Shown: positions 18,591 to 62,785, counted from the stretch's first letter. The stretch is 64,000 bases of DNA from an uncultured Flavobacteriaceae bacterium (GCA_913020475.1 CAJVZM010000001.1:18701-82700), one strand, 5' to 3'. The notes: a model not told the origin generated them from the sequence alone. Program-made: numbers and translations.

Positions 18591-18708
18591 TTTTTACTGC
18601 AATATTTTACGTTTTCCCAATCTCTTTCCCATTTCTTTCTCCAATGAAAAGGGCGCTGGCATTTTGGGCAAGTTTTTGTGGGCAGGTGCTCTTTTTTGAC
18701 CCCTCTCA

Positions 18709-20010: not shown

Positions 20011-20015
20011 TAAAA

Positions 20016-34602: not shown

Positions 34603-36915
34603 TCACTTTACCTCTAATAAATTACTTCCAGAGTAAAAATTCTTCAAATGAAAATATCCTTTTTCCGATTTATTTTGGGTGGGTTTGCCGTTTATATACA
34701 GCTTTTTATCTCCCTTAAGGGCAGGTATTTTAAGATCTCCCTTAACCCCACCAGGGAGTTTCACTTTCATTGCATAAGTGCTATCAGTCTGACGACAATC
34801 AACCTCAACGGATCCTGATATAAAACTGGTTTTCAGGTTTGCATATTCAAGTGCTCCGATTTTGGGATGAATTTTAATGTTTTGTGCTCCTGGGGTTAGG
34901 GGAGCTACTCCCATCATTTTTCTGACTATGATGTTTGCCGGTGCACCACCCCAAGCGTGGTTTAAATCCAAATTGGGTTTGTACCTTTTGTCCCATGCTT
35001 CCATAGTAATGGTAGAGCCATAGCGAATCATATTGTACCAACTCCTTTCGGTTTTGGCAGCCATTAGTTCTATGGCATGATTCTCTTCCCCGTAATCAAA
35101 AAGGCCCTCTAATAAAATTTGTGATCCATACACACTGCATGACATCTTTTTTTGTTCTATATATTTAACTACATTTTGAATGTTTTTTTCTGGGATTAAA
35201 CCAAAAGTAAGAGCAAACATGTTTGCATGTTGTGATTTATGGTCAGTATCTTCTCCATCGTTGATCAATCCATTGGTTTTGTCTTGAAATATGTCCAGAT
35301 AAGCTTTTTTAAGTTTTTTACTATGAGTTAGAAATAAAATTGAATCTTCTTTTTGATCCAAGTCAAGAGCAATTTTACCCATTATTTTTAGTGCTCCATA
35401 ATACAAGGCGTTTACCACTGCATTGTATTTTTGATATACATAACCATCATTTTCTCCAGCATACTCTTTTTCTGTCCCTGTAAAATGATTCAAGTTTTCA
35501 TATCCTCCAGGGGGACTCGCTTGAGGCCAGTCCACTATGTCCCTAAGGTTGTTATTCTTCCCCCAGTGATTTTTATGAAGTTTTTCAAAAAAATCCTCCG
35601 TTTGTTTTCCGGTTAAAGTACTAATTAGGCCCGTCTCGTTGGACAAGTCCATTAGTGTTTTGATTTTTAGCTCATGATAGTATTTTACGATAAAACGATT
35701 GTCCCCTGTGTAGAGATAATCATACCAAGCCATCAATATATTGTAAAGCGTCCATTCTGTTGGCCATGTTGGGTTGAATAACAGGTGTTTCATACTTCCC
35801 CTAGCAATACCGTATTCTGCATCCACCGCATAATGAGAAAGTTGATTGATATATGCATCGGCTTCATAAGGAATTCGTTCTCTGTCACCGTCTACATAAT
35901 AGCCACAAAAACTCGTGGCTTTCATGGAATATTTACAAAATTCCCAAACATGGTTCAATACTTCATTACTAGACTCAAAAGACGAGGCTGAATCTACGAA
36001 AGTATAATTTACCTTTGTTCTGACCACTTGATGAGCTTTTAAAGTTCCTTGACTCCCTTTTAGTTCAACAAATCTGAATGGATAGACCTCTCCGATATAG
36101 TCTGGCATTTTTATCATAAAACGGTTACTGGCCCTTTTTTTATTTTCTGGCCAAACGATTTCATACCAATGTGTTCCAGGCTTTAATTTCAGTTGGGTTT
36201 GATAATACCTAATATTTTTCCCAGGATTAGTATCAATGGAAAATTCGTTTTTTTGTTTCATTTCACCAACACTGACTAAAACAGAATCTTCTTTTATGGA
36301 ACTCAATTCAATTTTGAGCTTGGCAAAAGCCGCTTTTCTGAAATCTAGAAAATAGTTTCCATCTCTTTTTTTGGTCATTTCAGGAAACTCATCCATAGTG
36401 ACCAGTGGTTCTTGAGAGAATTTTTCCGAAGTTGCATTTGGATCAATTATAAATGCTCTAGGCTTTGAATAGACAGAGTTTTGATCGCTATTTTCCCAAT
36501 ATCGAACTTTCCAGTAATAGACTTTATTTTTTTGAAGAGGTTTACCTGCATACAAGGAAGAGCACTTTTGGGTATTTACTTTTCCACTGTCCCAAAAATC
36601 ACCTTTATTTTGATCTAATCCTTCCCGATTACTGCTGACCAAAATCTGATGGGCTGTGATATTTTGAGACCGGTCGTCAAGTATCCAATGGAATAGTGGG
36701 TTTTCAGATTGAACTTTAGCAATTTCATACTTCCCTTCGTTCAAAATACCGTCATGCAATAAAAGGGATTGTTTTTTACCATTTAGACCAATATAATCTG
36801 CATTACGCATTAAATCGACTCTTAAGTTTTTTGGTCGATTTTTTTCTTTTACACAGCTTTGGAAGGATAGGGTGGTGAGTATAATTATAAGTGTGTTTAA
36901 AGCCTTTATTTTCAT
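34603..36915 (-). CDS. GH78-like alpha-L-rhamnosidase family lipoprotein
   Basis: 770 aa with lipobox LSFQSC. It has the N-terminal pattern HQILVSS...GDFWDSGKV...LYAGKPLQKNKVYYWKVRYW and the C-terminal pattern HAWGGAPANIIVRKMMGVAPLTPGAQNIKIHP, both typical of GH78. Confidence 0.7.
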   Translation of the reverse strand: MKIKALNTLIIILTTLSFQSCVKEKNRPKNLRVDLMRNADYIGLNGKKQSLLLHDGILNEGKYEIAKVQSENPLFHWILDDRSQNITAHQILVSSNREGLDQNKGDFWDSGKVNTQKCSSLYAGKPLQKNKVYYWKVRYWENSDQNSVYSKPRAFIIDPNATSEKFSQEPLVTMDEFPEMTKKRDGNYFLDFRKAAFAKLKIELSSIKEDSVLVSVGEMKQKNEFSIDTNPGKNIRYYQTQLKLKPGTHWYEIVWPENKKRASNRFMIKMPDYIGEVYPFRFVELKGSQGTLKAHQVVRTKVNYTFVDSASSFESSNEVLNHVWEFCKYSMKATSFCGYYVDGDRERIPYEADAYINQLSHYAVDAEYGIARGSMKHLLFNPTWPTEWTLYNILMAWYDYLYTGDNRFIVKYYHELKIKTLMDLSNETGLISTLTGKQTEDFFEKLHKNHWGKNNNLRDIVDWPQASPPGGYENLNHFTGTEKEYAGENDGYVYQKYNAVVNALYYGALKIMGKIALDLDQKEDSILFLTHSKKLKKAYLDIFQDKTNGLINDGEDTDHKSQHANMFALTFGLIPEKNIQNVVKYIEQKKMSCSVYGSQILLEGLFDYGEENHAIELMAAKTERSWYNMIRYGSTITMEAWDKRYKPNLDLNHAWGGAPANIIVRKMMGVAPLTPGAQNIKIHPKIGALEYANLKTSFISGSVEVDCRQTDSTYAMKVKLPGGVKGDLKIPALKGDKKLYINGKPTQNKSEKGYFHLKNFYSGSNLLEVK

Positions 36916-37118
36916 TGTATTTTGATTTGTTGGATATACAATTCCTTAGGTTTCACAGCGAATTTTATCCTCAATATTTAAGGCTCCCTATTTATAATTG
37001 GGTTGTAAACATAAAACTTAAAATGACGAGGATCAATTGTAAAATATTTTTTTTCAATTCTTAAAATCAAGAATGCTTGTAAAGAAAGTTTTATACACCA
37101 TAAAAATAAAATACAAAT

Positions 37119-38441
37119 TTAATCTATGTATTGATTTTTTCCATTTTGTTTCAAAAGCTCAAAACGGTCAAATAATTCTCCCGTGGCGGTAAAAGAGCGA
37201 TAAATCAATTGATCACCATCGATTGAAATGTGCTGAAACAACTGTTTACGTTCTCCGTTCTTTTCTTGTACGGCTCCAAATTTATCCCATCCCGACTCAT
37301 TGACAGAATACATTTTGCCGCCACTTACTGAGACAACATATACAGGGCCCATTAATTCTTTGTTTTGATCACTTCTATTCACAACAATGGGGTTTTCAAA
37401 TATTGCTCCTCTGGCATAGCTGTGGTCATGTCCCTGAAGTGCCAAGTCCACATTATATTGATCAAACAGTGGCTTCCAATATTTTCGTAGTTCAGGATTA
37501 TCTCTTCCTGTAGATGCAGAAAAGATGGGGTGATGAAAGGTAACTACAGTCCATTTTTTATTGTTTTCTTCCAAAACTTTTTTTAGCCATTGGGCCTGAA
37601 GTTTGATGGCCCTATTGCTGTTGAGGGCAATCACTCTTAGATTGGGATAATCTATATAATAACAGGTTTTGTGTAATTCCTGAGGGCCATTTTTTGGAAA
37701 ACCAAACTGCGCGTCCCATTGAATGGAGAGCTCTGGTTTGTCTCGAGGTCTGTTGGCATTTAATCCCCGATACTCGTGGTTTCCCGGAACTGCAATTGCA
37801 GGTATTTCGCTATGGATAAATCCTCCAGCTGCAAACCATTCATTCCACTCACTTTCATCGTGGGCGGTATCGATCAAATCTCCTGCATGGATAAAAAAGT
37901 CTGCATTCGGTGCTTTTTTATAGGCATTTCTGATCACCCTAGACCACAATTCCAAAATGTAATTTTGCGCGTCACCCACATACAAGAAGGAAAGGGGGGT
38001 AGATTGGTTACTGGCAGTTGAAAATTGATGCCATTCACTTTTGAAATTATCGTTACCCACACGATAAGCATAAAGAGTATTGGGTTTTAACCCATTGAGT
38101 TGTACTTCAAAAAAGGAAGATTTAAAACCATCTTTGGATGCCTCAGCTGAGTTGATAAGGGTTCTCTTAGCTGGATAAGCTTTTGTGTTAATTCTAAATT
38201 CTGGCCCTGGCCCCGCGATTCCAATCTCTAGATAGCCCACTGTATTATTGGCATGAGTTCGCCAGTTGACACCAATCGATTGAGTGGGGTCGGCTGTAGC
38301 ACTTAATATAATGTGATCCGGAAATTCATCAGGTGCAGCCCATTTCTTGATAATTTTATCTAGTTGTTTTTGGGTTTGTTGTGCCCAACTGATTTGAAGG
38401 GAGAGAAATATAGAGCTGCCGATCAAAAACTTTTTTAACAT
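37119..38441 (-). CDS. Purple-acid-phosphatase-like metallophosphoesterase, secreted
   Basis: 440 aa with a signal peptide and an N-terminal Fn3-like part (YAYRVGN). The calcineurin-like motifs GDAQN, HAGDLID, GNHEY, FHHP and GHDHSY are present. Confidence 0.75.
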   Translation of the reverse strand: MLKKFLIGSSIFLSLQISWAQQTQKQLDKIIKKWAAPDEFPDHIILSATADPTQSIGVNWRTHANNTVGYLEIGIAGPGPEFRINTKAYPAKRTLINSAEASKDGFKSSFFEVQLNGLKPNTLYAYRVGNDNFKSEWHQFSTASNQSTPLSFLYVGDAQNYILELWSRVIRNAYKKAPNADFFIHAGDLIDTAHDESEWNEWFAAGGFIHSEIPAIAVPGNHEYRGLNANRPRDKPELSIQWDAQFGFPKNGPQELHKTCYYIDYPNLRVIALNSNRAIKLQAQWLKKVLEENNKKWTVVTFHHPIFSASTGRDNPELRKYWKPLFDQYNVDLALQGHDHSYARGAIFENPIVVNRSDQNKELMGPVYVVSVSGGKMYSVNESGWDKFGAVQEKNGERKQLFQHISIDGDQLIYRSFTATGELFDRFELLKQNGKNQYID

Positions 38442-38462: not shown

Positions 38463-40037
38463 TTAGAAACATGCAATTTCAATGGCTTTATACCAAATCT
38501 CCATTTCTCTTTTTCCGTGAAGTTGAAGGCCTACTGGGCCAACTAAATTAGCGTTTTCAAGTGAATAGTCCATCACCTGTTTGTCGTTCAGCCAAACTCG
38601 GTAGCGGTTTTCGATGGCTTCTACTTCCATTTTGTTCCAATCGTCTTGTTTGAGTAGTTCCTTAACCAACATTGCTTCTTTGGGATAGCCCTGCTTTGGA
38701 ATGTAGGGTGAAGCTGTCATGTCCCTTTTGAGTGATCCTGAAATTCCAATTTGGACTTGTGGATTACGGGGATTGTCACCACGTATAAAAATCCCTGAAT
38801 CCACAGTTCCGGAGCCAAACTTAAACTTTAACCGAATACGAAAATTATCAAACTTGTCTTTGGTCCAAAGCGTTGATCCTTTTTGTTTAGGACCGCTTTT
38901 GACTTTTAATATTTTATCCTCAATAGACCACCATATATTGTTTTCAGGAATTATCCATTTGGAGAGGTCCTTCCCGTCAAAATAACTTTTATATTTAGAG
39001 CTCACTAATGAAAATTTATTGATATCGTTAGGACCTAAAACCGATCCGTTGTGTATCAACATTCGATAGTGAAAACTTACAGATTCTCCTTCTTTTAGAG
39101 CAAAGTTTAAGACTTCTTTACCTTTAGAGAAAACTTCTTGCCCCAGTGGGTTGGCTGCGAAAAGTCCGTAGTCTCTTGCATGCCAATAGGTTGGATATCC
39201 CACATTGTTAGGGTTATCCATAATGGTTATGGAAACTGCTTCTCCATCTATTGTACTGAAGAGTTTTACCCATTCGGCACGGGTTCCCCAAACGTCATTT
39301 CCCTCCAACCCTTCACTACTAAGGTAATTCCCGTTAACTCCGGTATTGTCCAATACTTTTACCTCTGTGGGATTGCCTTGTGCATCAACAAAAATCGCAG
39401 GTTTTTTAGAGGGTAATTCCATAGCGCGGGTTACTCGAACCCCAAAAAATCCTTCCTTGTTGTCCTTGAAAGAAATGTCTTGTAGGGCAGTGAGAGTGGT
39501 GTATCGATCAACAATCCTTGTGTTTCCTTTTTGTGAGAATTTAAAAACTGTTATTTCTTTTAACATGGATTCACCCGAAGTACTTTGCCAGGCGCTTTTC
39601 GTGGTAAGGCTGCCTTCCACTTGATTTATTTTTACAATTTCACTGTGAACAATCTTTCCGTAGTCTTTCAGTTTTTCTCTTGCAATGGCATCGGAGTTGT
39701 TCCAAAAGTCCAAACCATTAACGTCACCATAGTTTAACCAATGTCCCATATGATGAGGGTGGTCAACTCGCTCCCCCGGTTGAGGGTCAATAGGAAAACC
39801 TCTGGTAAGTGTTTTTCCACTGGTAGTAACCAAAGGAAAGAGAACTGGTTTTGGCAATGAAGCTTTATAATGGTAACTGGTGAATGGCTTTCCATTGAGT
39901 TGTACGTCAACTTTTTGGCCAGCTGTATCGTTTACAAAAACAACCGAAGCAGGTTCTGCTTCGGTTGTTCTGGATTGATCATTGCATGACATCGAATAGA
40001 TGCAAAAAGTACTTATTAAAAAAAAAGATCGAATCAT
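38463..40037 (-). CDS. Fusion lipoprotein: DUF6807 (PmoA-like) domain plus C-terminal DUF1080 domain
   Basis: 524 aa with lipobox YSMSC. The N-terminal part has ERVDHPHHMGHWLNYGDVNGLDFWNN (the DUF6807/PmoA-like hallmark). The C-terminal ~190 aa start FDGKDLSKW and end EIWYKAIEI (DUF1080 frame). Confidence 0.65.
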   Translation of the reverse strand: MIRSFFLISTFCIYSMSCNDQSRTTEAEPASVVFVNDTAGQKVDVQLNGKPFTSYHYKASLPKPVLFPLVTTSGKTLTRGFPIDPQPGERVDHPHHMGHWLNYGDVNGLDFWNNSDAIAREKLKDYGKIVHSEIVKINQVEGSLTTKSAWQSTSGESMLKEITVFKFSQKGNTRIVDRYTTLTALQDISFKDNKEGFFGVRVTRAMELPSKKPAIFVDAQGNPTEVKVLDNTGVNGNYLSSEGLEGNDVWGTRAEWVKLFSTIDGEAVSITIMDNPNNVGYPTYWHARDYGLFAANPLGQEVFSKGKEVLNFALKEGESVSFHYRMLIHNGSVLGPNDINKFSLVSSKYKSYFDGKDLSKWIIPENNIWWSIEDKILKVKSGPKQKGSTLWTKDKFDNFRIRLKFKFGSGTVDSGIFIRGDNPRNPQVQIGISGSLKRDMTASPYIPKQGYPKEAMLVKELLKQDDWNKMEVEAIENRYRVWLNDKQVMDYSLENANLVGPVGLQLHGKREMEIWYKAIEIACF

Positions 40038-40044
40038 ACAATTA

Positions 40045-41427
40045 TTAATATTTAAATACTTTACCTCCTGCTAACACTTCCTGATTTTCCTCGTCAAAGG
40101 TAGCTTTTAGACCAGTTCTCATGGAGGCTGTGGTCATGATATTTGCTATTGAGTGGTTGTAACCTGCTTCAACCGGTGCATTTGTTTTTTCTCTTGAACG
40201 GACACATTCCAGCCAATTCAGCATGTGATTGGAAGTCATATTATCCACTCCCGTATTGGCAGAGGTAACCACCTTGGTGTCTAAATCAGATAAAGAGAAT
40301 TCTTTTAATTGATTGGGTTTCATTTTCATAGCCTTAGAATAGCGCTCTGTAAGTCCACCATTGGGTGTTACTTTGTTGGTTTTCATGTTTAATTCACCAC
40401 CGTTGGAATAATAAATTTCTTTAGTTCCTCCAGCAGAGTTAGTAAAGCGAGATGAATATACCACTTGGAAACCGGAGTTTATGTCATCCAAGGGGCCGTA
40501 ATCAAATACTGCCGTCATGGTATCAAAGTTGGATCGTCCATCTTTCCAAAGGTAGATACCTCCGTTGGCAGCAACACTTCTTGGGTGTGCCAAATCTGTA
40601 AACCAATGAACGGTATCTATTTGGTGTGCCATCCACTGTCCTGGAATACCAGAAGACAAGGGCCAGAACAATCGATATTCTAAATACTTTCTAGGATCCC
40701 ATTTTTGATAGGGTCGGTTCATCAAATATCTTTTCCAATCTACATCAGATTCCTTTATGTCACTTACTTTATTGGGATATACTCTCCATCTTCCAGGTTG
40801 ATTGACGTTCCAAGTCATTTCTACCATTACCAAGTCTCCAAAAGCGCCAGATTTGATGTATTTGTCGGCAGCATGATAGTTTTTTCCGCTTCTTCGTTGT
40901 GATCCAACCTGAAGAACAATGTCAGCATCATTTGCAGCTTTTCTACCCAATCTGGCATCTTCCATGGTTTCGGCAAAAGGCTTTTCTACATATACATCCT
41001 TTTTGGCGTTGGCGGCTTGAACGGTATGAAGGGCATGTTGGAAGTCGGCAGTTGAAATGATCACAGCATCAATTTGATTTTTGTCATACATTTCCTCATT
41101 GTTTCTCCATGTTTCGATCTTGTTACCAGTTGTTTTTTCTAAAAATGCTTTTCCCTCGTCTCTTCTTCTATTCCAAATATCAGAAACACCTACAATCTGG
41201 CAGTTTTGTTGTTTTGTATGCCCTTGAAAAGCGGGAATAAGTGAACCTTTGGCTCGACTTGAAAATCCTACGATTCCTACATTTAGGCGATCATTGGAGC
41301 CAATTATTCTTCTGTAACTTTGGGAACTCATCGAACTACTGGCAGCACTGACCCCGCTTACTCCAGCGATTACCCCAGCAGAGACTAATGAGGCGTCTTT
41401 GATAAATTTCCTTCTGTTTAAATCCAT
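40045..41427 (-). CDS. Tat-exported Gfo/Idh/MocA family oxidoreductase
   Basis: 460 aa with twin-arginine signal MDLNRRKFIKDASLVSAGVIAG. It has the Rossmann start LNVGIVGFSSRA and the EKP motif (VYVEKPFA). Confidence 0.8.
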   Translation of the reverse strand: MDLNRRKFIKDASLVSAGVIAGVSGVSAASSSMSSQSYRRIIGSNDRLNVGIVGFSSRAKGSLIPAFQGHTKQQNCQIVGVSDIWNRRRDEGKAFLEKTTGNKIETWRNNEEMYDKNQIDAVIISTADFQHALHTVQAANAKKDVYVEKPFAETMEDARLGRKAANDADIVLQVGSQRRSGKNYHAADKYIKSGAFGDLVMVEMTWNVNQPGRWRVYPNKVSDIKESDVDWKRYLMNRPYQKWDPRKYLEYRLFWPLSSGIPGQWMAHQIDTVHWFTDLAHPRSVAANGGIYLWKDGRSNFDTMTAVFDYGPLDDINSGFQVVYSSRFTNSAGGTKEIYYSNGGELNMKTNKVTPNGGLTERYSKAMKMKPNQLKEFSLSDLDTKVVTSANTGVDNMTSNHMLNWLECVRSREKTNAPVEAGYNHSIANIMTTASMRTGLKATFDEENQEVLAGGKVFKY

Positions 41428-41555: not shown

Positions 41556-43436
41556 TTACCTTACTTTATTCATAGTCCCATTTAGAACATTTAATCCATG
41601 ATTGAGAACCCTAACAACGTACTTATTGGGGTCACTATTGATTTGATTTTTAGCGGGGACCTCCAAAGTTCGGAGTGCATCTTGAAAATCATCCAAAACC
41701 AAAGCAGCTTGTAATCGGGTCCACTCGTTTTCTGCCTCTAATCCTTGAGATAATATTTTTAATATTTCATTTGATGATGAGCGATGCTTAAGTAGTGCTC
41801 TGGCGGCACTAATACTTACATTAATAATAGAGTCATTAAGTCTTTGTTTCAAGCGTTGACTGGTCCTTTTTTTTATTTTTTTATCCAAATTGTAAATGCC
41901 TTGTCCTGCCCAATATCGAACGGCTTCGTTAGGGTGGGTAAGCCCATCAAACAAGGTCTTTTCATCCGCTGTTGAGGACATCAGTAGCAAGTCATCATAA
42001 AAATACTCTTGAGCTCTAATCCATTCATAAATAGATTGATTGTTCTTTTCTTCCCACCGCCTCATTATGGCCTCGGGTATCAAGCCTACATCCAAAACAT
42101 TTTTCATCCATTTGTCGTGTTCGGACCGGAGTCTAGTTAGCACCTCTTTCATCTTGGGATCATTGGCCAAGTCATTGAATTCCATTGGATCTTTTTGTAA
42201 GTCAAATAAGGATTCAGTAGGCTTGGTTGTAGCCAACAATTGTTGCCCTACTGGCTTTAATGACCCTGCTATTTCAGCCTTTCTAAGTTCTGCCATCATA
42301 GGTCCTCCCTCTGGGGTATTCATGAATTGAATAAAAGGTTTTTTGGGCTCGTAATACCGCAGGTACTTATAACGTTTACTTCTTACTCCTCTTTGGATGT
42401 CATAGCGTTCATCCATTCTACCTCTAGCCAAATAAACATACTCTCTTTCCGCTTTTTGTTTTTCTCCAAGAAAAACTTTCCCTTGCATGGTTTTCGGAAT
42501 TTCTGCTCCAGCCAACTTAATGATAGTGGGAGCTAAGTCAATAAAACTGACCAATTGATTTACCTCGCTTCCTGGTTGGGCGGGATACAGTTCTTTGAAT
42601 TTTTCTGGAATATATATGATAAAAGGAACTTTTACCCCCGTATCAAAGAGCCATCTTTTGTGTCTGGGCAATCCGGTTCCATGATCGGAGTAAAAAAATA
42701 CGATGGTATTTTCACTTTCCCCGGCAGCATCGAGTTCACCGAGTATCTTTTCAACCACTGCATCCATAGTTGCTATATTGTCATAATGTCGGGTTAGTAG
42801 TGCTCTTGTTTCGGGCGTATCTGGAAAGTAGGGAGGGACCACTATTTTACTGGAGTCTGTCCTTAAGTGATTGGGAAGATCTTTGGTCAGTCGCTCGTGT
42901 TTATCTTTATCGTTTATGCAACTTTCGTGAGTCATGATTAAGTTAAAAATTGAAAAGAAAGGGGTACTATTATTAGGTCGGTTTTTCCAGTGAGCCGTTT
43001 TACTCGATTCGTCCCATATTTTCCTTTTCAAATTAAAGTTATAATCCTCTTTGGTGTTGTTGGTACAATAATAACCAGACTTTCTCAATACCTCAGGATA
43101 GAGTTTTACCTCATCTGGAATTCTTCCTGTACTTTTCATAGCATTAGAGAAAGACCGCATATGCAGCGTTCCTAAAGAGGAGGGATACATTCCAGTGACG
43201 ATGGCGTTTCGTGCCGGAGCACAAACGGGCGCATTGGCAATGGCATTATTGTATAAAAATCCCTTTGAGGCTAGAGCATCCAATGAAGGGGTGTAGGCAA
43301 GGGAATCTCCATAACATCCAAGATTAGTGCTAATGTCTTCAACGGTAATCCACAATATGTTGGGTGGGGGAGATGAGACCTCTTGGCAACCGTTAAGCCC
43401 CAAAAATAACATTAAGGCAATTATATTTCCATTCAT
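41556..43436 (-). CDS. S1 sulfatase with C-terminal HEAT-like repeat extension, lipoprotein
   Basis: 626 aa with lipobox GLNGC. NILWITVEDIS and the formylglycine motif CAPARNAIVTG are present. The C-terminal ~170 aa (HPNEAVRYWAGQG..., SISAARALL, NEWTRLQAALVL) look like HEAT/armadillo repeats. Confidence 0.8.
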   Translation of the reverse strand: MNGNIIALMLFLGLNGCQEVSSPPPNILWITVEDISTNLGCYGDSLAYTPSLDALASKGFLYNNAIANAPVCAPARNAIVTGMYPSSLGTLHMRSFSNAMKSTGRIPDEVKLYPEVLRKSGYYCTNNTKEDYNFNLKRKIWDESSKTAHWKNRPNNSTPFFSIFNLIMTHESCINDKDKHERLTKDLPNHLRTDSSKIVVPPYFPDTPETRALLTRHYDNIATMDAVVEKILGELDAAGESENTIVFFYSDHGTGLPRHKRWLFDTGVKVPFIIYIPEKFKELYPAQPGSEVNQLVSFIDLAPTIIKLAGAEIPKTMQGKVFLGEKQKAEREYVYLARGRMDERYDIQRGVRSKRYKYLRYYEPKKPFIQFMNTPEGGPMMAELRKAEIAGSLKPVGQQLLATTKPTESLFDLQKDPMEFNDLANDPKMKEVLTRLRSEHDKWMKNVLDVGLIPEAIMRRWEEKNNQSIYEWIRAQEYFYDDLLLMSSTADEKTLFDGLTHPNEAVRYWAGQGIYNLDKKIKKRTSQRLKQRLNDSIINVSISAARALLKHRSSSNEILKILSQGLEAENEWTRLQAALVLDDFQDALRTLEVPAKNQINSDPNKYVVRVLNHGLNVLNGTMNKVR

Positions 43437-43437
43437 T

Positions 43438-45000
43438 TTAATTAGATGATAAGTTATTCAATATTACTTCAACCATTTCATCATTGGTAATCTTAAAATT
43501 TTTAACATCTTTAACAACGATCTGTTTGGGGTATCCTTCCCCTTTAATCTTAATGTCCGTTAATTCAGAATTTTTAACATCATCCATCACAATAGACGGT
43601 CTGTAATCCTTTTCTTCTGCTTCAAGACTTATGTTTTTTAGTTTGAGTCCTGAAACATGTCTAACGTATAGTCCCCAGGCTGGCAATTCACCAAACATAC
43701 TGAATTCTGGATAACTTTCTTTTTTTTCAGGGACTCCATCCATTCGCCAGGTAGGCATATTGGCATAGGCTTGATTCCCTCCCCCAGGATATCTGATGAT
43801 TACATTTTCAATACTGATATTTTTTACATCGTATCCTGGAATGCCCGTAATCGAAGATGGGAATATATTGTGAAAGAAAGGCAACATGGGGCCTCTTATT
43901 TCATAATCTTTATCGGGAATTCCTTTGGGAACGCTAACATCAATATTTTTGATCTCCACATTTTTCAAACTTCCCACAGCACCAGGTGCGTTTCGGTTTC
44001 CCAATTTTATAAAAATAGCATTTCCAGTGTTGATTGCTTTGATATTCCTAACTTTTACACCGTCAACAAATCCTCCGTCTACTGCCTCTATGGCAATTGC
44101 AGACCGATAGGTATCATAAATTTCTAGGTTTTCTAACTCAATGTTTTTGAATCCACCGTGTGATGCGGTTCCAAATTTTACGGCACTTGCACTGGATCTG
44201 ACTCTACAGTTGGAAACATAAATGTTTTCACAATAGGAGAACTTGTGATGTGATTTAAAACATATGGCATCATCAGCGGCATTGATATCGCTGTTGGTTA
44301 TTCGCACATTTTTACTGTCCACCAAATCTATTCCGTCATTATTCCAATACACATCGCTTTCCAATTTTATTTGATCAATTTCTACCGAGTCACATAGCTC
44401 AATTTTTGTAACCCATTCTGCGCCATTTTTTAGAGTTACGCCTTTAATCTGAATATTTTTTGATTGATTAAAAAAAATAAGGTTAGGCCTTCCTCCTTCG
44501 TTTGGTCTTTTCCTTCTTTCATTATAGCTCCTGGAGATTTTGAAATAATCTTGAGGATTACTATAATAAAGACTGTCCAAAGCTAAAGCTAAATATCCTC
44601 CTTGGCCATTTACAGTGCCAAAGCCGGTAAGCTTGATATTATTCCTAAAATGAGCACTTATTAATGCAGTGTTGTGTCGTGTCATAAGGGTGTCTTTTGA
44701 GACTACTTTTTTGTAATCAAAAGGATTTTTGCTACCCAATAAAACGGCTTCTGCTTCAAAAAAAAGTTCGATATCATCCTTAAGTTCAATACTTCCACTG
44801 AGAAACTCTCCAGCAGGAAATATAATTTTCCCTCCACCTTTATCACTCACCTGGTCAATCAAATTTTGTATGGCCGTGGTATTTAGTGTTTTCGCATCTC
44901 CAATTATTCCATAATCGGTCACCACATATTCAGATCTGATGGAGCTAATAAATGATGATAAAATCAATAAAAGGCTTAGAAAGATTATTCTTGAATTCAA
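43438..45000 (-). CDS. GH28-like glycoside hydrolase (parallel beta-helix)
   Basis: 520 aa with a signal peptide. It has VTDYGIIGDAKTLNTTAIQNLID, then the GH28 motif series NNDGIDL, ADDAICFKS, GTASHGG and RSAIAIE. Confidence 0.75.
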   Translation of the reverse strand: MNSRIIFLSLLLILSSFISSIRSEYVVTDYGIIGDAKTLNTTAIQNLIDQVSDKGGGKIIFPAGEFLSGSIELKDDIELFFEAEAVLLGSKNPFDYKKVVSKDTLMTRHNTALISAHFRNNIKLTGFGTVNGQGGYLALALDSLYYSNPQDYFKISRSYNERRKRPNEGGRPNLIFFNQSKNIQIKGVTLKNGAEWVTKIELCDSVEIDQIKLESDVYWNNDGIDLVDSKNVRITNSDINAADDAICFKSHHKFSYCENIYVSNCRVRSSASAVKFGTASHGGFKNIELENLEIYDTYRSAIAIEAVDGGFVDGVKVRNIKAINTGNAIFIKLGNRNAPGAVGSLKNVEIKNIDVSVPKGIPDKDYEIRGPMLPFFHNIFPSSITGIPGYDVKNISIENVIIRYPGGGNQAYANMPTWRMDGVPEKKESYPEFSMFGELPAWGLYVRHVSGLKLKNISLEAEEKDYRPSIVMDDVKNSELTDIKIKGEGYPKQIVVKDVKNFKITNDEMVEVILNNLSSN

Positions 45001-45018
45001 TTCTTTAAATTTTATTGG

Positions 45019-46569
45019 TTATTCAATTCCGTATTGTTTAGCCCATTCGGAATAATATTTTTTAAATTCTTCAACCTTCTCAGGTTCCTCTAGCACTAAA
45101 TTTCTCCCCTCAACAGGATCTTTTTTCAAATTGTACAACTCCCACTCCCCCTTGTAAGCCACTAATTTCCAGTTGCCATCCCTAACAGCCTTTCCATGTT
45201 GCCATTGCCAAAATAGAGGTTCCTTTCTTATGACGAGAGGCTCACCAACCATCTGTGGTAAAAAACTTTTTCCAGGGCTAGCAAAAATGACATCATTATT
45301 TAGCATCTTTGGGTAATCTGCTCCAGCAATCTCTTGGAGGGTAGGGAGGAAGTCAATAAAATGGACTACTTGATGAGTAACCGATCCCTTATTTTTGATT
45401 TTCTCTGGCCAATATGCAATTAGTGGAGTTTTGATTCCTCCTTCATGGCTCCAGTTTTTGTATTCTCTATATGGTGTATTACTTACATTAGCCCAATTTT
45501 TCCCCAGTGACTTCCAATTAGTCAATGTACCGATTTTCCCATACCCTCCCGGTAAATTAACGACTTCACTGGATCCACCATTATCGGAAGTAAAAAGAAT
45601 AAGCGTGTTGTTCAGTTTTCCTACTTGCTCTAATTTTGTTAGTATTCTACCGATGTTTTGATCCAATCGATCAATCATTGCTGCATATACAGCCATGGTT
45701 CTACTTTCTTTTGTTTTTTCCGCAATACTTAAGCTTTCCCATTTGGTGTGTTTTGCATGGGAAAGCACTGTATTTTCGGGAAGAATACCCAAGCGTTTTT
45801 GCTTTTCAAATCTTTGCTTACGAATTGCTTCATAGCCCACACTATAACGTCCTCTATACTTTTCAATGTCCTCCGGCCAAGCCATCAAAGGGTCATGGGG
45901 GGCAGTGTAGGAAAGGTACAGAAAAAAAGGTTTTTCGGATTCGATTTGTTCCATCCAATTCAATGCATAATCGGTAAAAACATCGGTTGTATAAAAGTTT
46001 TTGGATTTGGGAGTGTAGGGATTGATAATTTCTCCTTCAATAACCCAATTGCGATAGCTGATGGGTTTTTTTGTTAGTCCTTTTTGGGCAGGTTGACCTT
46101 CCCCCTCTCTCTCTAAGCCAGGATTGAAGTGATTAGATGCACCATCTAACAGCCCACTGTAGTGGTCAAACCCTCGAAAGACCGGATTTTCTGTACTGTG
46201 ATGTTTACCTGACCAAAGAGTTGTATATCCCTCCGATTGAAATAATTCTCCCAATGTAATGGCATTACGAAGGGGTTGACTAAAGCTCTTGTGATATCCC
46301 GTTTGTTGAGAATACAATCCAGTGAGTATTGTTGCTCGTGAAGGAAAACACTTAGAGGTATTGTAGGCATTGGTAAATCGAACTCCCTCAAAAGCCAAAC
46401 GGTCGATGTTGGGTGTTGATATTTCACTACCATATGCTCCCAAATCTGAATAGCCCATATCATCGACCAAAATCAATATGACGTTGGGGCGATTATCTAT
46501 ACTTGGTGATCTTTGACAATTGGATAGAGTGGTAAAAAGAATTAAAAAAAATAATAATCTATAACTCAC
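45019..46569 (-). CDS. Arylsulfatase-type S1 sulfatase, lipoprotein
   Basis: 516 aa with lipobox LSNC. NVILILVDDMGYSDLG, CFPSRATILTG, GKHH and SDNGG are present. Confidence 0.85.
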   Translation of the reverse strand: MSYRLLFFLILFTTLSNCQRSPSIDNRPNVILILVDDMGYSDLGAYGSEISTPNIDRLAFEGVRFTNAYNTSKCFPSRATILTGLYSQQTGYHKSFSQPLRNAITLGELFQSEGYTTLWSGKHHSTENPVFRGFDHYSGLLDGASNHFNPGLEREGEGQPAQKGLTKKPISYRNWVIEGEIINPYTPKSKNFYTTDVFTDYALNWMEQIESEKPFFLYLSYTAPHDPLMAWPEDIEKYRGRYSVGYEAIRKQRFEKQKRLGILPENTVLSHAKHTKWESLSIAEKTKESRTMAVYAAMIDRLDQNIGRILTKLEQVGKLNNTLILFTSDNGGSSEVVNLPGGYGKIGTLTNWKSLGKNWANVSNTPYREYKNWSHEGGIKTPLIAYWPEKIKNKGSVTHQVVHFIDFLPTLQEIAGADYPKMLNNDVIFASPGKSFLPQMVGEPLVIRKEPLFWQWQHGKAVRDGNWKLVAYKGEWELYNLKKDPVEGRNLVLEEPEKVEEFKKYYSEWAKQYGIE

Positions 46570-47953
46570 GTATCTTAATGTTTTTGAACTTTACGTCTCC
46601 TGGACTGTGATCTTGAAGTAATATTCTCCCACTACTTCCCACTCCAAAGCCACTGTGATTTGCATATTTACTTTTTTTGATCAGATTTTTCATCGATTGG
46701 GAATACCGATTGTATTCGACAACTTTAATATTGTTGATCCAGTGTTGGACGTTTCCACCATTTACAACAATTCTAACTTTGTTCCATCGATCAGCGCCAT
46801 TGGCTCTTATGTCTTCGCGATTAGCCTCAGATAGGTTTTCGGCTGCAATTAGATCATAAAGAGATCCTATGGTTCTGTTGCCGTCAACTCCTTTGTGATA
46901 ATCGGGATGGTCCTTGTCAAGTAACTGAAACTCTAATCCAATACCTCTGCCATCCCCTTTAGTCAATGCATCTACAAAGTATTTGACACCACTATTACCA
47001 CCTTTCTTTAACATTACGTCAACCTCCAATTCAAAATTGTCAAATTTTTCCTGGGTAACAATATCTCCAGCTTTTTTATAATCTTTCGATTCTTCATGCT
47101 TTAAAAAGAGTATAGTTCCATCAACAATTTCTATCCCGTGTTTTGGGAAATTTTCAGATTTGGCTCCTTTCCAGCCCCTGGTAGTTTTCCCATCCCAAAG
47201 CAACCTCCAACCTTTTTTCACTTCCTCAAGGGTAAGTGTATTGGTCAAATAGCTGACTTGCCTCGCGTGTGGTTGATTTTTTGATCTGTATTGCTCCGGA
47301 TTTTCTGTAATAATTCTGATATTTTTCCATTGAATGGTCTTCCCTTCTTGATCCTTGTCTTTAATAGAGTGGACTTGTAGGGCGATAAACCCCCTTTGTG
47401 TCATGTCGTCAACAAGGTTGGCACATTGAACCCCGTTCAGGAAAGTTTTGATTGTGTTGCCAATGGCTTCAATTCTCACCTTATTCCATTCACCATTATT
47501 AAAAGCAGCGCTTCCTTTGGAGTTGATGGTTAGGGGATATAGCCAACCTCTGCGTGCTTCGTCAAAAATTCCTGCTGACCATGCTCTCTCACTTGTATCC
47601 AGTTCGGACTGATATCCGTGCACACGACCATCTTTAAATTCCTTCATCGAGTTAGATCTAAATTGGATTCCGGAATTCAATCCCGGCGCAACCAATACTT
47701 CCAGTTCTAGGATAAAATCACTATAATATTCTTTAGTACACAAAAAAGTATTTGGCGTCCCGATTTGGGAGGTACCAACAATGGTGTTTTTGACTATTTG
47801 GTATTTAGCGGTTCCATTTTTCACCTCCCAATCTTTCAAATCTTTCCCATTAAAAAGGGATTTCCATGGAGTTTGAGAGCTTGTATTAGAACATAAAAAT
47901 AAAGCCAATGATAGGATGAACAATTGACTAAAAAAGTTAAATTTGGTTTTCAT
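46559..47953 (-). CDS. Tandem DUF1080 (two 3-keto-disaccharide-hydrolase-like domains) secreted protein
   Basis: I place the start at the ATG at 47953 (MKTKFNFFSQLFILSLALFLCS). The 18-codon extension in the track reads through the promoter and PUL box. There are two repeats: FNGKDLKDWEV...IQWKNIRI and LWDGKTTRGWKG...VKFKNIKI. Confidence 0.7.
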   Translation of the reverse strand: MKTKFNFFSQLFILSLALFLCSNTSSQTPWKSLFNGKDLKDWEVKNGTAKYQIVKNTIVGTSQIGTPNTFLCTKEYYSDFILELEVLVAPGLNSGIQFRSNSMKEFKDGRVHGYQSELDTSERAWSAGIFDEARRGWLYPLTINSKGSAAFNNGEWNKVRIEAIGNTIKTFLNGVQCANLVDDMTQRGFIALQVHSIKDKDQEGKTIQWKNIRIITENPEQYRSKNQPHARQVSYLTNTLTLEEVKKGWRLLWDGKTTRGWKGAKSENFPKHGIEIVDGTILFLKHEESKDYKKAGDIVTQEKFDNFELEVDVMLKKGGNSGVKYFVDALTKGDGRGIGLEFQLLDKDHPDYHKGVDGNRTIGSLYDLIAAENLSEANREDIRANGADRWNKVRIVVNGGNVQHWINNIKVVEYNRYSQSMKNLIKKSKYANHSGFGVGSSGRILLQDHSPGDVKFKNIKIREL

Positions 47954-47974
47954 TATACAACTAATTAAGGTTTT

Positions 47975-47987
47975 GTGTGCGTACACG
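47975..47987. promoter_or_regulatory. PUL box copy b: GTGTGCGTACACG in the divergent promoter region
   Basis: It lies in the 82-bp gap between divergent operons (ATG 47953 minus, GTG 48036 plus). It abuts the minus-strand TACATTTG box and overlaps a plus-strand TAAGGTTTTG near-box. Confidence 0.5.
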
Positions 47988-47995
47988 CAAATGTA
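47988..47995 (-). promoter_or_regulatory. Candidate -7 promoter box (TACATTTG on the minus strand)
   Basis: Plus-strand CAAATGTA is the reverse complement of TACATTTG, which fits TAnnTTTG. It lies 34 nt upstream of the ATG at 47953. Confidence 0.4.
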
Positions 47996-48035
47996 GCAAA
48001 AAAGCAATGATGGTCAATATAAAAAAAATCAAAGT

Positions 48036-54377: not shown

Positions 54378-54395
54378 TCCTAAATCAGCCATACA

Positions 54396-60400: not shown

Positions 60401-60401
60401 A

Positions 60402-62774: not shown

Positions 62775-62785
62775 AAATAGTATAA

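What the first reader, a model, noticed from the sequence alone, without database searches (positions are those of the whole stretch)
38463..41427. Tat-exported Gfo/Idh/MocA oxidoreductase paired with a DUF6807(PmoA-like)-DUF1080 fusion lipoprotein: candidate periplasmic oxidative glycoside-cleavage module
Seen in the sequence:
- The oxidoreductase carries a clear twin-arginine signal (NRRKFIK), implying export with a bound cofactor.
- The next gene, 7 nt downstream, fuses a DUF6807 domain (HPHHMGHWLNYGDVNGLDFWNN) to a complete DUF1080 domain behind a lipobox.

From established knowledge (memory): Gfo/Idh/MocA enzymes, DUF1080 (3-keto-disaccharide hydrolase family) and xylose-isomerase-like TIM barrels make up the 3-keto-glycoside routes. 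These were described for Agrobacterium, for the B. thetaiotaomicron BT2156-BT2160 glucosinolate operon, and for a broad-specificity oxidative glycan breakdown pathway reported in 2024.

Inference: the physical fusion argues that the uncharacterised DUF6807 family works in the same chemistry as DUF1080. Here that chemistry may be applied to sulfated sugars that resist ordinary glycosidases.
Basis: partly seen in the sequence, partly recalled or inferred. Interest (0 to 1): 0.65.

Follow-up and report, generated by a model that had tools for sequence, protein, structure and literature searches.

The report
Periplasmic keto-sugar glycoside-cleavage cassette with DUF6807
A marine Flavobacteriaceae sugar-degradation gene cluster encodes an exported NAD-type sugar dehydrogenase next to a two-domain lipoprotein (DUF6807 plus DUF1080); comparison across genomes shows that the unstudied DUF6807 family is a regular partner of this dehydrogenase and very probably a missing enzyme of the recently described "oxidise, then eliminate" route for breaking sugar linkages.

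Summary
On the minus strand, a 460-aa Gfo/Idh/MocA oxidoreductase with a twin-arginine signal (41427..40045) lies 7 nt upstream of a 524-aa protein (40037..38463). That protein has a signal/Cys18, DUF6807 (PF14100, E 1.5e-75) and DUF1080 (PF06439, E 6e-31).

Comparative findings:
- Tat-Gfo plus DUF6807 is a conserved pair. The Gfo is adjacent on the same strand in 46 of 73 genome loci from several phyla.
- DUF1080 lies within three genes in 28 of 73 loci.
- DUF6807 is fused to DUF1080 in at least four architectures, in both orders and with three DUF1080 subtypes.

The Gfo's nearest solved and curated relatives are AL3 and BT2158, glycoside 3-dehydrogenases, but it is a separate clade (92.9 bits against a cutoff of 750). 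The fused DUF1080 is a divergent short subtype that keeps 3 of the 8 BT2 active-site residues. A full BT2-like site (8/8) sits in the tandem DUF1080 protein at 48007..46559 in the same cluster.

DUF6807 models confidently (pLDDT 88.9) as a distant galactose-mutarotase-like β-sandwich. It has about 60 near-invariant residues, including HPHH. I found no paper on its function.

My best reading is a variant 3-keto glycoside-cleavage cassette in which DUF6807 acts on keto-sugar intermediates. The proposed link to sulfated substrates is local to this clade (sulfatases in 9 of 73 loci). This is a new variant of a known kind.

The parts
40045..41427 (-). Tat-exported Gfo/Idh/MocA oxidoreductase (460 aa), a glycoside 3-dehydrogenase-like clade that partners DUF6807
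   Evidence: Pfam GFO_IDH_MocA 8.6e-16. Best PDB hit is AL3 8tdf, 1.9e-14. NCBIfam BT_2158_fam scores 92.9 bits, below the 750 cutoff. K149, Q177, R213, W214 and H268 match AL3's active site. AL3 Asp248 is Gln264 here.
41329..41427 (-). Twin-arginine signal region of the Gfo (about aa 1-33; N-R-R-K-F-I-K followed by a hydrophobic stretch)
   Evidence: Read directly from the sequence. 43 of 47 Gfo genes adjacent to DUF6807 in other genomes carry an [ST]RRxF[IL]K-type motif.
40038..40044 (-). 7-nt intergenic gap (TAATTGT) between the Gfo stop codon and the fusion start codon; probably co-transcribed
   Evidence: No terminator-like site lies between the two genes.
39984..40037 (-). Signal peptide with a candidate lipoprotein cysteine (Cys18) of the fusion protein
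   Evidence: Cys18 is conserved in at least 90% of 49 homologues. N-terminal hydrophobic segments are present in 74 of 75 family members.
39039..39914 (-). DUF6807 (PF14100) domain, aa 42-333: galactose-mutarotase-like beta-supersandwich with an enzyme-like invariant core (R90, D92, H93, H95, H96, N102, D110, D192, K194, R201, E207, D218, H286, R288, N296 and others)
   Evidence: Pfam 1.5e-75. AF2 domain model pLDDT 88.9, pTM 0.90. Foldseek hits to GalM-type proteins and GH36/GH2/GH94 N-domains, E 4e-6 to 1e-3. Invariant residues derived from 75 sequences with median 49% identity.
38475..38993 (-). Short 'type C' DUF1080 (PF06439) jelly-roll domain, aa 349-521: a DUF6807-associated subfamily with motifs DSG, SGSLKRDMT and QLH
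   Evidence: Pfam 6.1e-31. Foldseek hits to BT3469, 3imm, BT2 and AL2. Profile against the PDB: BT3469 1.7e-24; BT2 3.7e-6 over the N-terminal half only. Keeps 3 of 8 BT2 residues. 51% identical to the N-terminal domain of the reverse-order fusion P0049.
46559..48007 (-). Tandem DUF1080 protein (482 aa, BT3469-like) in the same co-directional cluster. Its C-terminal domain (aa 253-482, nt 46562-47251) has the full BT2/AL2 active-site set.
   Evidence: Pfam 2e-80, two stretches. 4jqt 2.2e-141, AL2 4.7e-25, BT2 6.4e-24. 8 of 8 BT2 residues kept, with Glu103 as Asp. A tandem DUF1080 lies within 3 genes of DUF6807 in 17 of 73 loci.
41556..46569 (-). Sulfatase with HEAT repeats (41556-43436), GH28 (43438-45000) and sulfatase (45019-46569), lying between the tandem DUF1080 and the Gfo; specific to this clade
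   Evidence: Pfam. The sulfatases are syntenic in close relatives L001-L004 and L009-L011. They are absent from the Maribacter cassettes.
34603..38441 (-). Downstream co-directional genes: purple-acid-phosphatase-like metallophosphoesterase (37119-38441) and GH78 alpha-L-rhamnosidase (34603-36915)
   Evidence: Pfam. Conserved only in the close relatives.
51366..56276 (+). SusC-like TonB-dependent transporter (51366-54377) and SusD-like protein (54396-56276) of the divergently oriented half of the locus
   Evidence: Pfam. SusC/D also flank the Maribacter cassettes.

Best explanation
The two genes are the core of a periplasmic, non-Koshland 'oxidise, eliminate, hydrate, reduce' glycoside-cleavage cassette. 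It is related to the B. thetaiotaomicron BT2156-2160 / Alistipes AL1-5 system but is a distinct variant.

Proposed mechanism:
1. The Tat-exported Gfo, carrying tightly bound NAD(P), oxidises a ring hydroxyl (most likely C3) of the non-reducing-end sugar of imported oligosaccharides.
2. The membrane-anchored DUF6807-DUF1080 lipoprotein, together with the BT2-like domain of the tandem DUF1080 protein at 48007..46559, acts on the resulting keto-glycoside.
3. My preferred role for DUF6807 is a new-fold keto-glycoside lyase and/or keto-glucal hydratase, possibly metal-dependent through the invariant HPHH/His286/acidic cluster. It would take the place that the TIM-barrel lyase BT1 holds in the Bacteroides operon.
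4. The Gfo-NAD(P)H then reduces the released keto-sugar, closing a redox-neutral cycle.

In this lineage the cassette has been expanded with sulfatases, GH28 and GH78. It probably finishes off desulfated or partly sulfated rhamnose- or uronate-containing algal oligosaccharides.

Shown here: gene structure, domains, fold, conservation, genomic linkage and fusions.
Inferred: every chemical step, the site of oxidation, the substrate, and the periplasmic orientation of the lipoprotein.

My confidence is about 0.7 that the cassette belongs to this pathway type, and about 0.4 for the specific lyase/hydratase role of DUF6807.
For: Linkage:
- At least 566 species genomes encode DUF6807 relatives.
- In 73 analysed loci (Bacteroidota, Acidobacteriota, Ignavibacteria, Calditrichota and others) a Gfo is adjacent on the same strand in 46 and within 3 genes in 53.
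- 43 of 47 adjacent Gfo genes carry a Tat motif.
- 74 of 75 DUF6807 proteins have an N-terminal signal-like segment, so both partners are exported.
- DUF1080 is within 3 genes in 28 of 73 loci. PF01261 TIM barrels were found in 9 of the unlabelled same-strand neighbours within two genes.
- Gene order varies (Gfo-DUF6807-DUF1080; DUF1080-DUF6807-Gfo; DUF6807-tandemDUF1080-Gfo) while the content stays the same.

Fusions:
- DUF6807-typeC (window).
- typeC-DUF6807 (P0049 and five other clusters).
- BT2-like typeA-DUF6807 (P0126, all 8 BT2 residues).
- typeB-DUF6807 (P0146).

Pathway assignment:
- Gfo nearest to AL3/BT2158, with five of six mappable AL3 active-site residues kept.
- The tandem DUF1080 C-domain keeps 8 of 8 BT2 residues.
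- The roles of AL/BT1-3 are taken from bioRxiv 10.1101/2024.03.25.586180.

Catalytic character of DUF6807:
- About 60 positions are at least 97% conserved at a median 49% identity. They include 4 His, 7 Arg/Lys and 6 Asp/Glu.
- The model is confident and has a sugar-handling fold.
- This cluster has no TIM-barrel lyase, so the BT1 role is unfilled.
Against: - No biochemical data exist for DUF6807, for this Gfo clade or for type C DUF1080.
- The Gfo scores only 92.9 bits against the BT_2158 equivalog cutoff of 750. Its C-terminal half does not align to AL3, and AL3 Asp248 is Gln or Asn throughout the clade. The site of oxidation could therefore differ.
- The fused DUF1080 lacks the E-x-Q motif and the Lys245 segment.
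- 20 of 73 DUF6807 genes have no Gfo within 3 genes.
- DUF6807 co-occurs with TIM barrels in about 12% of loci, so it is not a strict replacement for them.
- The mutarotase-like fold is better known for anomerisation or sugar binding than for elimination.
- Other DUF6807 fusions (lactonase, cupredoxin, redoxin) point in other directions.
- I could not inspect model coordinates, so clustering of the invariant residues into one pocket is not shown.
Confidence: 0.4

Rival explanations
1. The pathway is the same, but DUF6807 is a keto-sugar mutarotase or ring-form isomerase rather than a lyase. It would keep the released 3-keto-sugar, which otherwise collapses into furanose forms, in the pyranose or anomeric form that the Gfo-NADH can reduce. 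That would speed the rate-limiting cofactor-recycling half-reaction.
For: - The fold is galactose-mutarotase-like.
- In the AL/BT system, re-oxidation of the enzyme-bound NADH was rate-limiting in vitro, because 3-ketoglucose isomerises to furanose.
- This role explains why DUF6807 tracks the Gfo (46-53 of 73 loci) more closely than either lyase family (DUF1080 in 28 loci, TIM barrels in 9).
- It also explains the fusion to the hydratase-type DUF1080 that produces the keto-sugar.
Against: - A profile comparison with E. coli GalM finds no sequence relationship (probability 0.1%), and I could map no equivalent of the His/His/Glu catalytic set.
- Foldseek TM-scores are only 0.3-0.44.
- Loci with only Gfo plus DUF6807 would then lack a local lyase.
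- The very large invariant set exceeds what mutarotases need.
Confidence: 0.25
2. This is not a glycoside-cleavage system. It would be a periplasmic GFOR-like aldose oxidoreduction module. DUF6807 would act as an aldose 1-epimerase feeding the correct anomer to a Tat-exported aldose 1-dehydrogenase (lactone-forming), with bound NADP recycled by reducing a second sugar.
For: - Zymomonas GFOR is a Tat-exported Gfo with bound NADP, and it is a detectable relative (1h6a, 6.5e-6).
- The DUF6807 fold is mutarotase-like.
- One DUF6807-lactonase fusion exists (P0148).
Against: - GFOR similarity is eight orders of magnitude weaker than similarity to AL3.
- The best curated model is glycoside 3-dehydrogenase.
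- The recurrent and independent fusions and adjacency are with DUF1080, a keto-glycoside lyase/hydratase family, not with lactonases (one cluster only).
- The mutarotase catalytic residues are not demonstrable.
Confidence: 0.08
3. DUF6807 is a non-catalytic carbohydrate-binding or scaffolding module. As a lipoprotein anchor it would hold substrate, or hold the soluble Gfo and DUF1080 enzymes, at the membrane. This would resemble the mutarotase-like accessory domains of GH36, GH2 and GH94 enzymes.
For: - The best Foldseek hits include non-catalytic N-terminal domains of GH36, GH2 and GH94 enzymes.
- Many family members are lipoproteins.
- It is fused to a variety of catalytic domains.
Against: - About 60 near-invariant positions at a median 49% identity, rich in His, Asp, Glu, Arg and Lys (HPHH, DFWNN, DNKEG, YWHAR motifs), are atypical of binding modules and typical of active sites.
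- Most family members are stand-alone proteins of about 350 aa.
Confidence: 0.07

Closest known systems
BT2156-BT2160 (B. thetaiotaomicron) / AL1-AL5 (Alistipes) oxidative glycoside-cleavage operon (Liu et al. 2021, PMC8121099; Nasseri et al., bioRxiv 10.1101/2024.03.25.586180)
   Same: Both have a Tat-exported Gfo/Idh/MocA dehydrogenase plus an exported DUF1080 lipoprotein in a Bacteroidota sugar-utilisation locus. The Gfo is the nearest solved and curated relative of AL3/BT2158 and shares most of its active-site residues. A BT2-type DUF1080 domain with 8 of 8 active-site residues is in the same cluster.
   Different: This cluster has no TIM-barrel (BT1) lyase, no second cytoplasmic Gfo beside the pair, and no SusR-type regulator. 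The Gfo is a separate clade (92.9 bits against a 750 cutoff; Asp248 is Gln). A DUF6807 domain is added and the fused DUF1080 is a divergent short subtype. Sulfatases, GH28 and GH78 are interleaved.
BT3469 (PDB 4jqt), tandem DUF1080 protein of unknown function
   Same: The window protein at 46559-48007 is an ortholog-level match (2.2e-141). The fused short DUF1080 is closest to its N-terminal domain (1.7e-24).
   Different: BT3469 itself has not been characterised. The fused domain has DSG in place of NSG, lacks the Q-x-E acid, and has its own SGSLKRDMT loop.
Galactose mutarotase / aldose 1-epimerase superfamily (e.g. B. subtilis GalM 4bze, human GALM 1snz, E. coli YphB 3nre)
   Same: The overall beta-supersandwich fold matches the DUF6807 model (Foldseek E 1e-5 to 3e-4, probability about 1.0).
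   Different: No sequence or profile similarity (hhalign probability 0.1%). TM-scores are 0.3-0.44. DUF6807 has a long loop-rich insert (aa 57-127) carrying HPHH and DFWNN. The catalytic His/His/Glu set cannot be identified.
Zymomonas mobilis glucose-fructose oxidoreductase (GFOR)
   Same: A Tat-exported periplasmic Gfo-family enzyme with non-dissociating nicotinamide cofactor, which recycles the cofactor by a second sugar half-reaction (established knowledge; cited in PMC8121099).
   Different: Only weak similarity (6.5e-6). GFOR oxidises C1 of free glucose, and no DUF6807 or DUF1080 partner is described for it.
Lac161 soil-metagenome operon (Cheng et al. 2017, PMC5342196)
   Same: This is the only paper I found that mentions a PF14100 gene in a functional context. 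ORF9 (PF14100) lies between two novel beta-galactosidases and an enolase-superfamily gene. The window also has an enolase-superfamily gene (59183-60400).
   Different: No Gfo or DUF1080 is reported in that operon, ORF9 itself was not assayed, and the organism is unrelated.

Membership tests
Pfam PF14100 (DUF6807, formerly 'PmoA') | Match to the family HMM above the gathering score over most of the profile | tested here: met
   254.8 bits against a cutoff of 27; profile positions 1-260 of 270; aa 42-333.
Pfam PF06439 (3keto-disac_hyd / DUF1080) | Match to the family HMM above the gathering score over the whole profile, with the jelly-roll fold | tested here: met
   108.4 bits against a cutoff of 26.8; profile positions 2-186 of 187. 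Foldseek hits to BT3469, 3imm, BT2 and AL2, E 6e-12 to 2e-9.
BT2/AL2-type 3-keto-alpha-glucoside 1,2-lyase / 3-keto-2-hydroxy-glucal hydratase | Conserved active-site and metal set Glu/Asp103, Asn134, Glu164, Gln166, Tyr190, Lys245, Gln273, His275 (bioRxiv 10.1101/2024.03.25.586180), tested in the fused C-terminal domain | tested here: not met
   Only the Tyr190, Gln273 and His275 equivalents are kept. Asn134 is Asp, E-x-Q is absent, and the Glu103 and Lys245 segments are missing. Only the N-terminal half aligns to BT2 (3.7e-6).
BT2/AL2-type 3-keto-alpha-glucoside 1,2-lyase / 3-keto-2-hydroxy-glucal hydratase | The same eight residues, tested in the C-terminal domain of the neighbouring tandem DUF1080 protein (46559-48007) | tested here: met
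   Full-length alignment to BT2157 (3osd/8tda, 1e-23) and AL2 (1e-24). D, N, E, Q, Y, K, Q and H are all present. Enzyme activity was not tested.
BT2158/AL3 glycoside 3-dehydrogenase (NCBIfam NF058561, equivalog) | Score above the curated equivalog cutoff | tested here: not met
   It is the best model, but scores 92.9 bits against a cutoff of 750. Only aa 4-290 align to profile positions 1-268 of 487.
BT2158/AL3 glycoside 3-dehydrogenase | Twin-arginine signal, plus the active-site residues Lys(EKP), Gln161, Arg192, Trp195, Asp248, His252 and Tyr349 | tested here: inconclusive
   The Tat motif NRRKFIK is present. K149, Q177, R213, W214 and H268 are conserved. Asp248 is Gln264 here (Gln or Asn in all 45 clade members). 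Tyr349 lies outside the alignable region.
BT2158/AL3 glycoside 3-dehydrogenase | Tightly bound NAD and regiospecific C3 oxidation of glycosides | not testable with these tools
   This needs purified protein and NMR or kinetic assays.
Galactose mutarotase (aldose 1-epimerase) | Beta-supersandwich fold | tested here: met
   The top Foldseek PDB hits to the domain model (pLDDT 88.9) are GalM-type proteins and mutarotase-like domains of GH36, GH2 and GH94 enzymes, E 4e-6 to 1e-3, TM 0.3-0.44. The resemblance is distant.
Galactose mutarotase (aldose 1-epimerase) | Sequence or profile relationship and the catalytic His/His/Glu set | tested here: not met
   hhalign of the DUF6807 alignment against E. 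coli GalM gives probability 0.1% and E 0.54. No PDB sequence hit was found for the DUF6807 part.
GH109 (NAD-dependent, Tat-exported Gfo-fold alpha-N-acetylgalactosaminidase) | Detectable sequence similarity to solved GH109 members | tested here: not met
   None of the 37 PDB sequences matched at E <= 1e-3 is named as an alpha-N-acetylgalactosaminidase. My recollection that GH109 structures exist in the PDB is from memory.
Bacteroidota polysaccharide utilisation locus (PUL) | Adjacent SusC/SusD pair with CAZymes | tested here: met
   SusC is at 51366-54377 and SusD at 54396-56276. GH28, GH78, GH92 and six sulfatases are nearby. Co-regulation of the module with SusC/D is inferred only.

The most novel reading that the evidence does not exclude
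DUF6807 is a previously unrecognised catalytic family with a mutarotase-like fold and an HPHH-centred site. Together with its own clade of Tat-exported Gfo dehydrogenases it forms a minimal two-protein, redox-neutral, non-Koshland glycosidase. This system would be widespread in marine and soil Bacteroidota, Acidobacteriota and allies (about 3,200 clusters at 50% identity). DUF1080 or TIM-barrel lyases would be optional add-ons that widen anomer or sugar specificity.
Probability: 0.4. Interest if true: 0.75.

Novelty: new variant of a known kind. Interest (0 to 1): 0.6.

Why it matters
The oxidise-eliminate-hydrate route (2021-2024) is a newly recognised alternative to classical glycosidases, and its component list is still open.

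This analysis gives a pathway assignment to an uncharacterised Pfam family. The family has about 3,200 clusters at 50% identity and relatives in at least 566 species genomes. It now has a defined partner enzyme, a compartment, candidate catalytic residues and ready-made test constructs, including natural fusions in both domain orders.

If DUF6807 is the missing lyase, hydratase or keto-sugar isomerase, three things follow:
- A new enzyme family would be added to carbohydrate-active enzyme classification.
- It would help explain how the periplasmic NAD cycle is closed.
- Many marine and soil glycan loci that lack recognisable glycosidases for particular linkages could be flagged as active.

The sulfatase-embedded version here would extend the route to algal sulfated glycans.

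Tried and rejected
- **PDB sequence search for the DUF6807 part.** Only the DUF1080 part matched.
- **Fold search with the full-length model.** It was dominated by the DUF1080 domain and by two-domain GH43/GH32 false global matches. I therefore modelled the DUF6807 domain separately.
- **hhalign of DUF6807 against E. coli GalM**, to map catalytic residues. No relationship was found.
- **Sigma-70 promoter and intrinsic terminator scan of 34.0-48.6 kb.** Counts were at or below the shuffled expectation (39 vs 41.9; 7 vs 13.1). The scan is uninformative, and the promoter model is not appropriate for Bacteroidota.
- **Literature searches** for DUF6807, PF14100, 'PmoA family protein', and combinations of 3-keto, marine and sulfatase terms. 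There is no functional study. The only mentions are a passing DUF count and the Lac161 operon.
- **GH109 membership.** Rejected, as there was no similarity at E <= 1e-3.
- **The 'methane oxygenase PmoA' label** that some databases carry. Rejected: the protein is a soluble exported beta-sandwich with no membrane-protein features.
- **Assembly artefact as the origin of the fusion.** Rejected.
- **Sulfated sugars as the family's general substrate.** Rejected.
- **Not possible:** inspecting model coordinates, running a signal-peptide predictor, or modelling a Gfo-DUF6807 complex.

Full report
**1. Observation**

- Gene 41427..40045 encodes a 460-aa protein beginning MDLNRRKFIKDASLVSAGVIAG.
- Gene 40037..38463 encodes a 524-aa protein containing DHPHHMGHWLNYGDVNGLDFWNN.
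- The gap between them is 7 nt.

Pfam confirms every domain call:
- Gfo: GFO_IDH_MocA (8.6e-16) plus the C3 domain.
- Fusion: DUF6807/PF14100 at aa 42-333 (1.5e-75, 254.8 bits).
- Fusion: a full-length 3keto-disac_hyd/PF06439 domain at aa 349-521 (6.1e-31).

The fusion is real. About 44 clusters at 90% identity from independent metagenomes and isolates have both domains.

**2. Setting**

The window has about 38% G+C. It reads as a marine Flavobacteriaceae genome; the nearest genomes are Flavobacteriaceae MAGs.

The pair sits in a co-directional minus-strand run:
- tandem DUF1080 (48007..46559)
- sulfatase
- GH28
- sulfatase with HEAT repeats
- Tat-Gfo
- DUF6807-DUF1080
- purple-acid-phosphatase-like protein
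- GH78

Opposite this run is a plus-strand set:
- two sulfatases
- SusC and SusD
- a beta-lactamase-fold protein
- a sulfatase
- an enolase-superfamily protein
- GH92
- a signal-less Gfo

Relatives at 69-76% identity keep the same order, apart from an added SASA esterase and no GH28. The promoter and terminator scans were uninformative.

**3. The dehydrogenase**

Its best solved relatives are 8tdf and 8tdh (1.9e-14). By residue numbering these are AL3, the Tat-exported glycoside 3-dehydrogenase of Nasseri et al. Chain index plus 29 reproduces the paper's Gln161, Arg192, Trp195, Asp248 and His252.

NCBIfam's best model is BT_2158_fam 'glycoside 3-dehydrogenase', but at 92.9 bits against an equivalog cutoff of 750.

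I aligned 45 sequences: the window Gfo plus 44 DUF6807-adjacent Gfo proteins.
- The EKP lysine, Gln177 and His268 are invariant.
- Arg213 and Trp214 are present in 41 of 45.
- AL3's Asp248 is never Asp; it is Gln in 34 and Asn in 11.

The Gfo is therefore a sister clade of the known 3-dehydrogenases, not a member of that family. GFOR, inositol dehydrogenases, levoglucosan dehydrogenase and DgpA are all much weaker hits. No GH109 structure appears in the hit list.

**4. DUF1080 content**

A profile of the fused domain and its stand-alone relatives is closest to the N-domain of BT3469 (4jqt, 1.7e-24) and to 3imm. It aligns to BT2 and AL2 only over its N-terminal half (about 4e-6).

I reconstructed BT2157 numbering from the printed alignments; chain index plus 25 gives the paper's residues. 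I then aligned all the DUF1080 types. Three types emerge:
- **Type A (BT2-like).** Carries Glu/Asp103, Asn134, Glu164, Gln166, Tyr190, Lys245, Gln273 and His275.
- **Type B (BT3469-N-like).** Has Q-x-E/D and QVH.
- **Type C (short).** Has DSG/DTG, SGSLKRDMT and QLH.

The fused domain is type C. It keeps only the Tyr190, Gln273 and His275 equivalents.

The tandem protein at 48007..46559 is an ortholog-level match to BT3469 (2.2e-141). Its C-terminal domain is type A with 8 of 8 residues. A bona fide BT2-like site is therefore present in the cluster, but not in the fusion.

**5. DUF6807**

No solved structure matches by sequence.
- The AF2 model of the whole protein has pLDDT 82.5 and pTM 0.83.
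- The model of the domain alone has pLDDT 88.9 and pTM 0.90.

Foldseek against the PDB returns galactose mutarotases and aldose 1-epimerase-like proteins (3dcd, 3mwx, 4bze, 1snz, 3nre, 1jov). It also returns the mutarotase-like domains of GH36, GH2, GH94, PL and OpgD proteins. E-values run from 4e-6 to 1e-3 and TM-scores from 0.3 to 0.44. This is a consistent but distant fold assignment.

hhalign against E. coli GalM finds nothing (probability 0.1%).

Across 75 sequences with a median 49% identity from several phyla, about 60 positions are at least 97% conserved. They include R90, D92, H93, P94, H95, H96, N102, N107, D110, F111, W112, N113, D192, K194, R201, E207, D218, Y238, R253, D274, N278, W285, H286, R288, Y290 and N296. 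That pattern is typical of an enzyme rather than a binding module.

74 of 75 sequences have an N-terminal hydrophobic signal-like segment. About 30 have a lipobox-like Cys. Only one of the 75 had an RR match in its N-terminal region.

The family has 3,233 clusters at 50% identity with E <= 1e-3, and 1,949 at E <= 1e-10.

**6. Genomic linkage**

I called ORFs in the 80 best loci and labelled them with phmmer seeds. Of 73 loci with a DUF6807 ORF:

| Feature | Loci |
|---|---|
| Gfo adjacent on the same strand | 46 |
| Gfo within three genes | 53 |
| DUF1080 within three genes | 28 |
| DUF1080 adjacent | 20 |
| DUF1080 fused | 4 |

Further points:
- 43 of 47 adjacent Gfo proteins carry a Tat motif.
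- Pfam scans of the unlabelled same-strand neighbours found xylose-isomerase-like TIM barrels in 9 cases and LacI regulators in 8. The rest were various carbohydrate enzymes.
- A tandem DUF1080 is nearby in 17 loci, SusC/D is within 10 kb in 19, and a sulfatase is within 10 kb in only 9.

Gene orders differ while the content is kept:
- Maribacter confluentis has Gfo, DUF6807 (358 aa), type C DUF1080 (201 aa) and LacI.
- M. algarum has tandem DUF1080, Gfo, the fusion and LacI, with SusD/C alongside.
- Pedobacter species have DUF6807, tandem DUF1080 and Gfo.
- A Flavobacteriaceae MAG (L072) has type C DUF1080, DUF6807 and Gfo.
- Portibacter lacus has the reverse fusion followed by Gfo.

**7. Fusions**

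Besides the window's DUF6807-typeC order:
- Six clusters have typeC-DUF6807. Their type C domain is 51% identical to the window's.
- P0126 fuses a type A, BT2-like domain (8 of 8 residues) to DUF6807.
- P0146 fuses a type B domain to DUF6807.

That makes at least four architectures joining DUF6807 to DUF1080. This is strong Rosetta-stone evidence for a shared pathway.

Single clusters also fuse DUF6807 to a lactonase, a cupredoxin, a redoxin, an MBL domain, a peptidase S51 domain or a GDSL domain. These are unexplained. I did not check them for assembly artefacts.

**8. Interpretation**

In the characterised system:
- AL3/BT3 oxidises C3.
- BT1 (TIM barrel) eliminates beta-glycosides.
- BT2 (DUF1080) eliminates alpha-glycosides and hydrates the glucal.
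- The enzyme-bound NADH is re-oxidised by the 3-keto-sugar product.

Here the dehydrogenase-like partner and a BT2-like domain are present, the TIM barrel is absent, and DUF6807 is the constant extra. Three readings follow:
- **Preferred (about 0.4).** DUF6807 is a new-fold keto-glycoside lyase and/or hydratase. This makes the conserved Gfo-DUF6807 pair self-sufficient, and it fits the His- and acid-rich invariant core.
- **Main rival (about 0.25).** DUF6807 is a keto-sugar ring-form or anomer isomerase serving the rate-limiting reductive half-reaction. This fits the fold, and it fits the fact that DUF6807 tracks the Gfo more closely than it tracks either lyase family.
- **Less likely.** A GFOR-like aldose-oxidation module, or a non-catalytic anchor.

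I put the pathway-level assignment at about 0.7. All the chemistry is inferred.

**9. Sulfated substrates**

Sulfatases are interleaved in this clade only, and they are rare around DUF6807 in general. The Maribacter cassettes instead sit beside glucuronate isomerase, LacI and SusC/D.

In the known pathway, substitution at the 3-position blocks oxidation, whereas 6-phospho and 6-sulfo sugars are tolerated by some systems. Any role on sulfated glycans therefore probably follows, or depends on, desulfation at particular positions.

**10. Novelty**

No searchable paper assigns a function to DUF6807. The architecture is visible in databases but has not been interpreted.

This is a new variant of a known kind of system. 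It gives a concrete, testable function for a sizeable family of unknown function.

Noticed in passing
window 34-4762: A second group of '3-keto route'-type parts lies about 34 kb from the module: a PIG-L-like deacetylase (34-1284 +), a xylose-isomerase-like TIM barrel PF01261 (1650-2579 +), GH20 (2589-4142 +) and a short DUF1080 protein (4169-4762 -). No Gfo is visible beside them inside the window.
   Followed up: partly
window 14271-20019 (-): Four photolyase/cryptochrome-family genes lie in a row: two with the DNA_photolyase plus FAD_binding_7 pair, one DPRP, and one more photolyase-like gene.
   Followed up: no
window 59183-63805 (+): An enolase-superfamily (MR_MLE_C) protein, GH92 and a signal-less Gfo/Idh/MocA (339 aa) lie downstream of SusC/D. 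The only paper that mentions a PF14100 gene (PMC5342196) also has an enolase-superfamily gene next to it.
   Followed up: no
P0148, P0217, P0244, P0139, P0220, P0240 (50%-identity cluster representatives): DUF6807 is also found fused to a 7-bladed lactonase, a cupredoxin, an AhpC/redoxin domain, a metallo-beta-lactamase domain, a peptidase S51 domain and a GDSL-like domain. Each is a single cluster. They were not checked for assembly artefacts and are not explained by the main model.
   Followed up: partly
L006:2985-9967 (Portibacter lacus): The reverse-order DUF1080-DUF6807 fusion and its Tat-Gfo directly follow a cytochrome-c-like gene, a PSCyt1/PSCyt2/PSD1 protein and a DUF1501 protein. This hints at a possible electron-transfer link for cofactor re-oxidation in that organism.
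   Followed up: no
L050:9977-12250 (Calditrichota MAG): Two DUF6807 genes lie in tandem, flanked on each side by a DUF1080 gene, with no Gfo within three genes.
   Followed up: no
window 37119-38441 (-): A purple-acid-phosphatase-like metallophosphoesterase with a signal peptide lies 21 nt downstream of the fusion. It is conserved in that position only in the close relatives (L001-L004, L009-L011). Its role in a glycan locus is unclear.
   Followed up: partly
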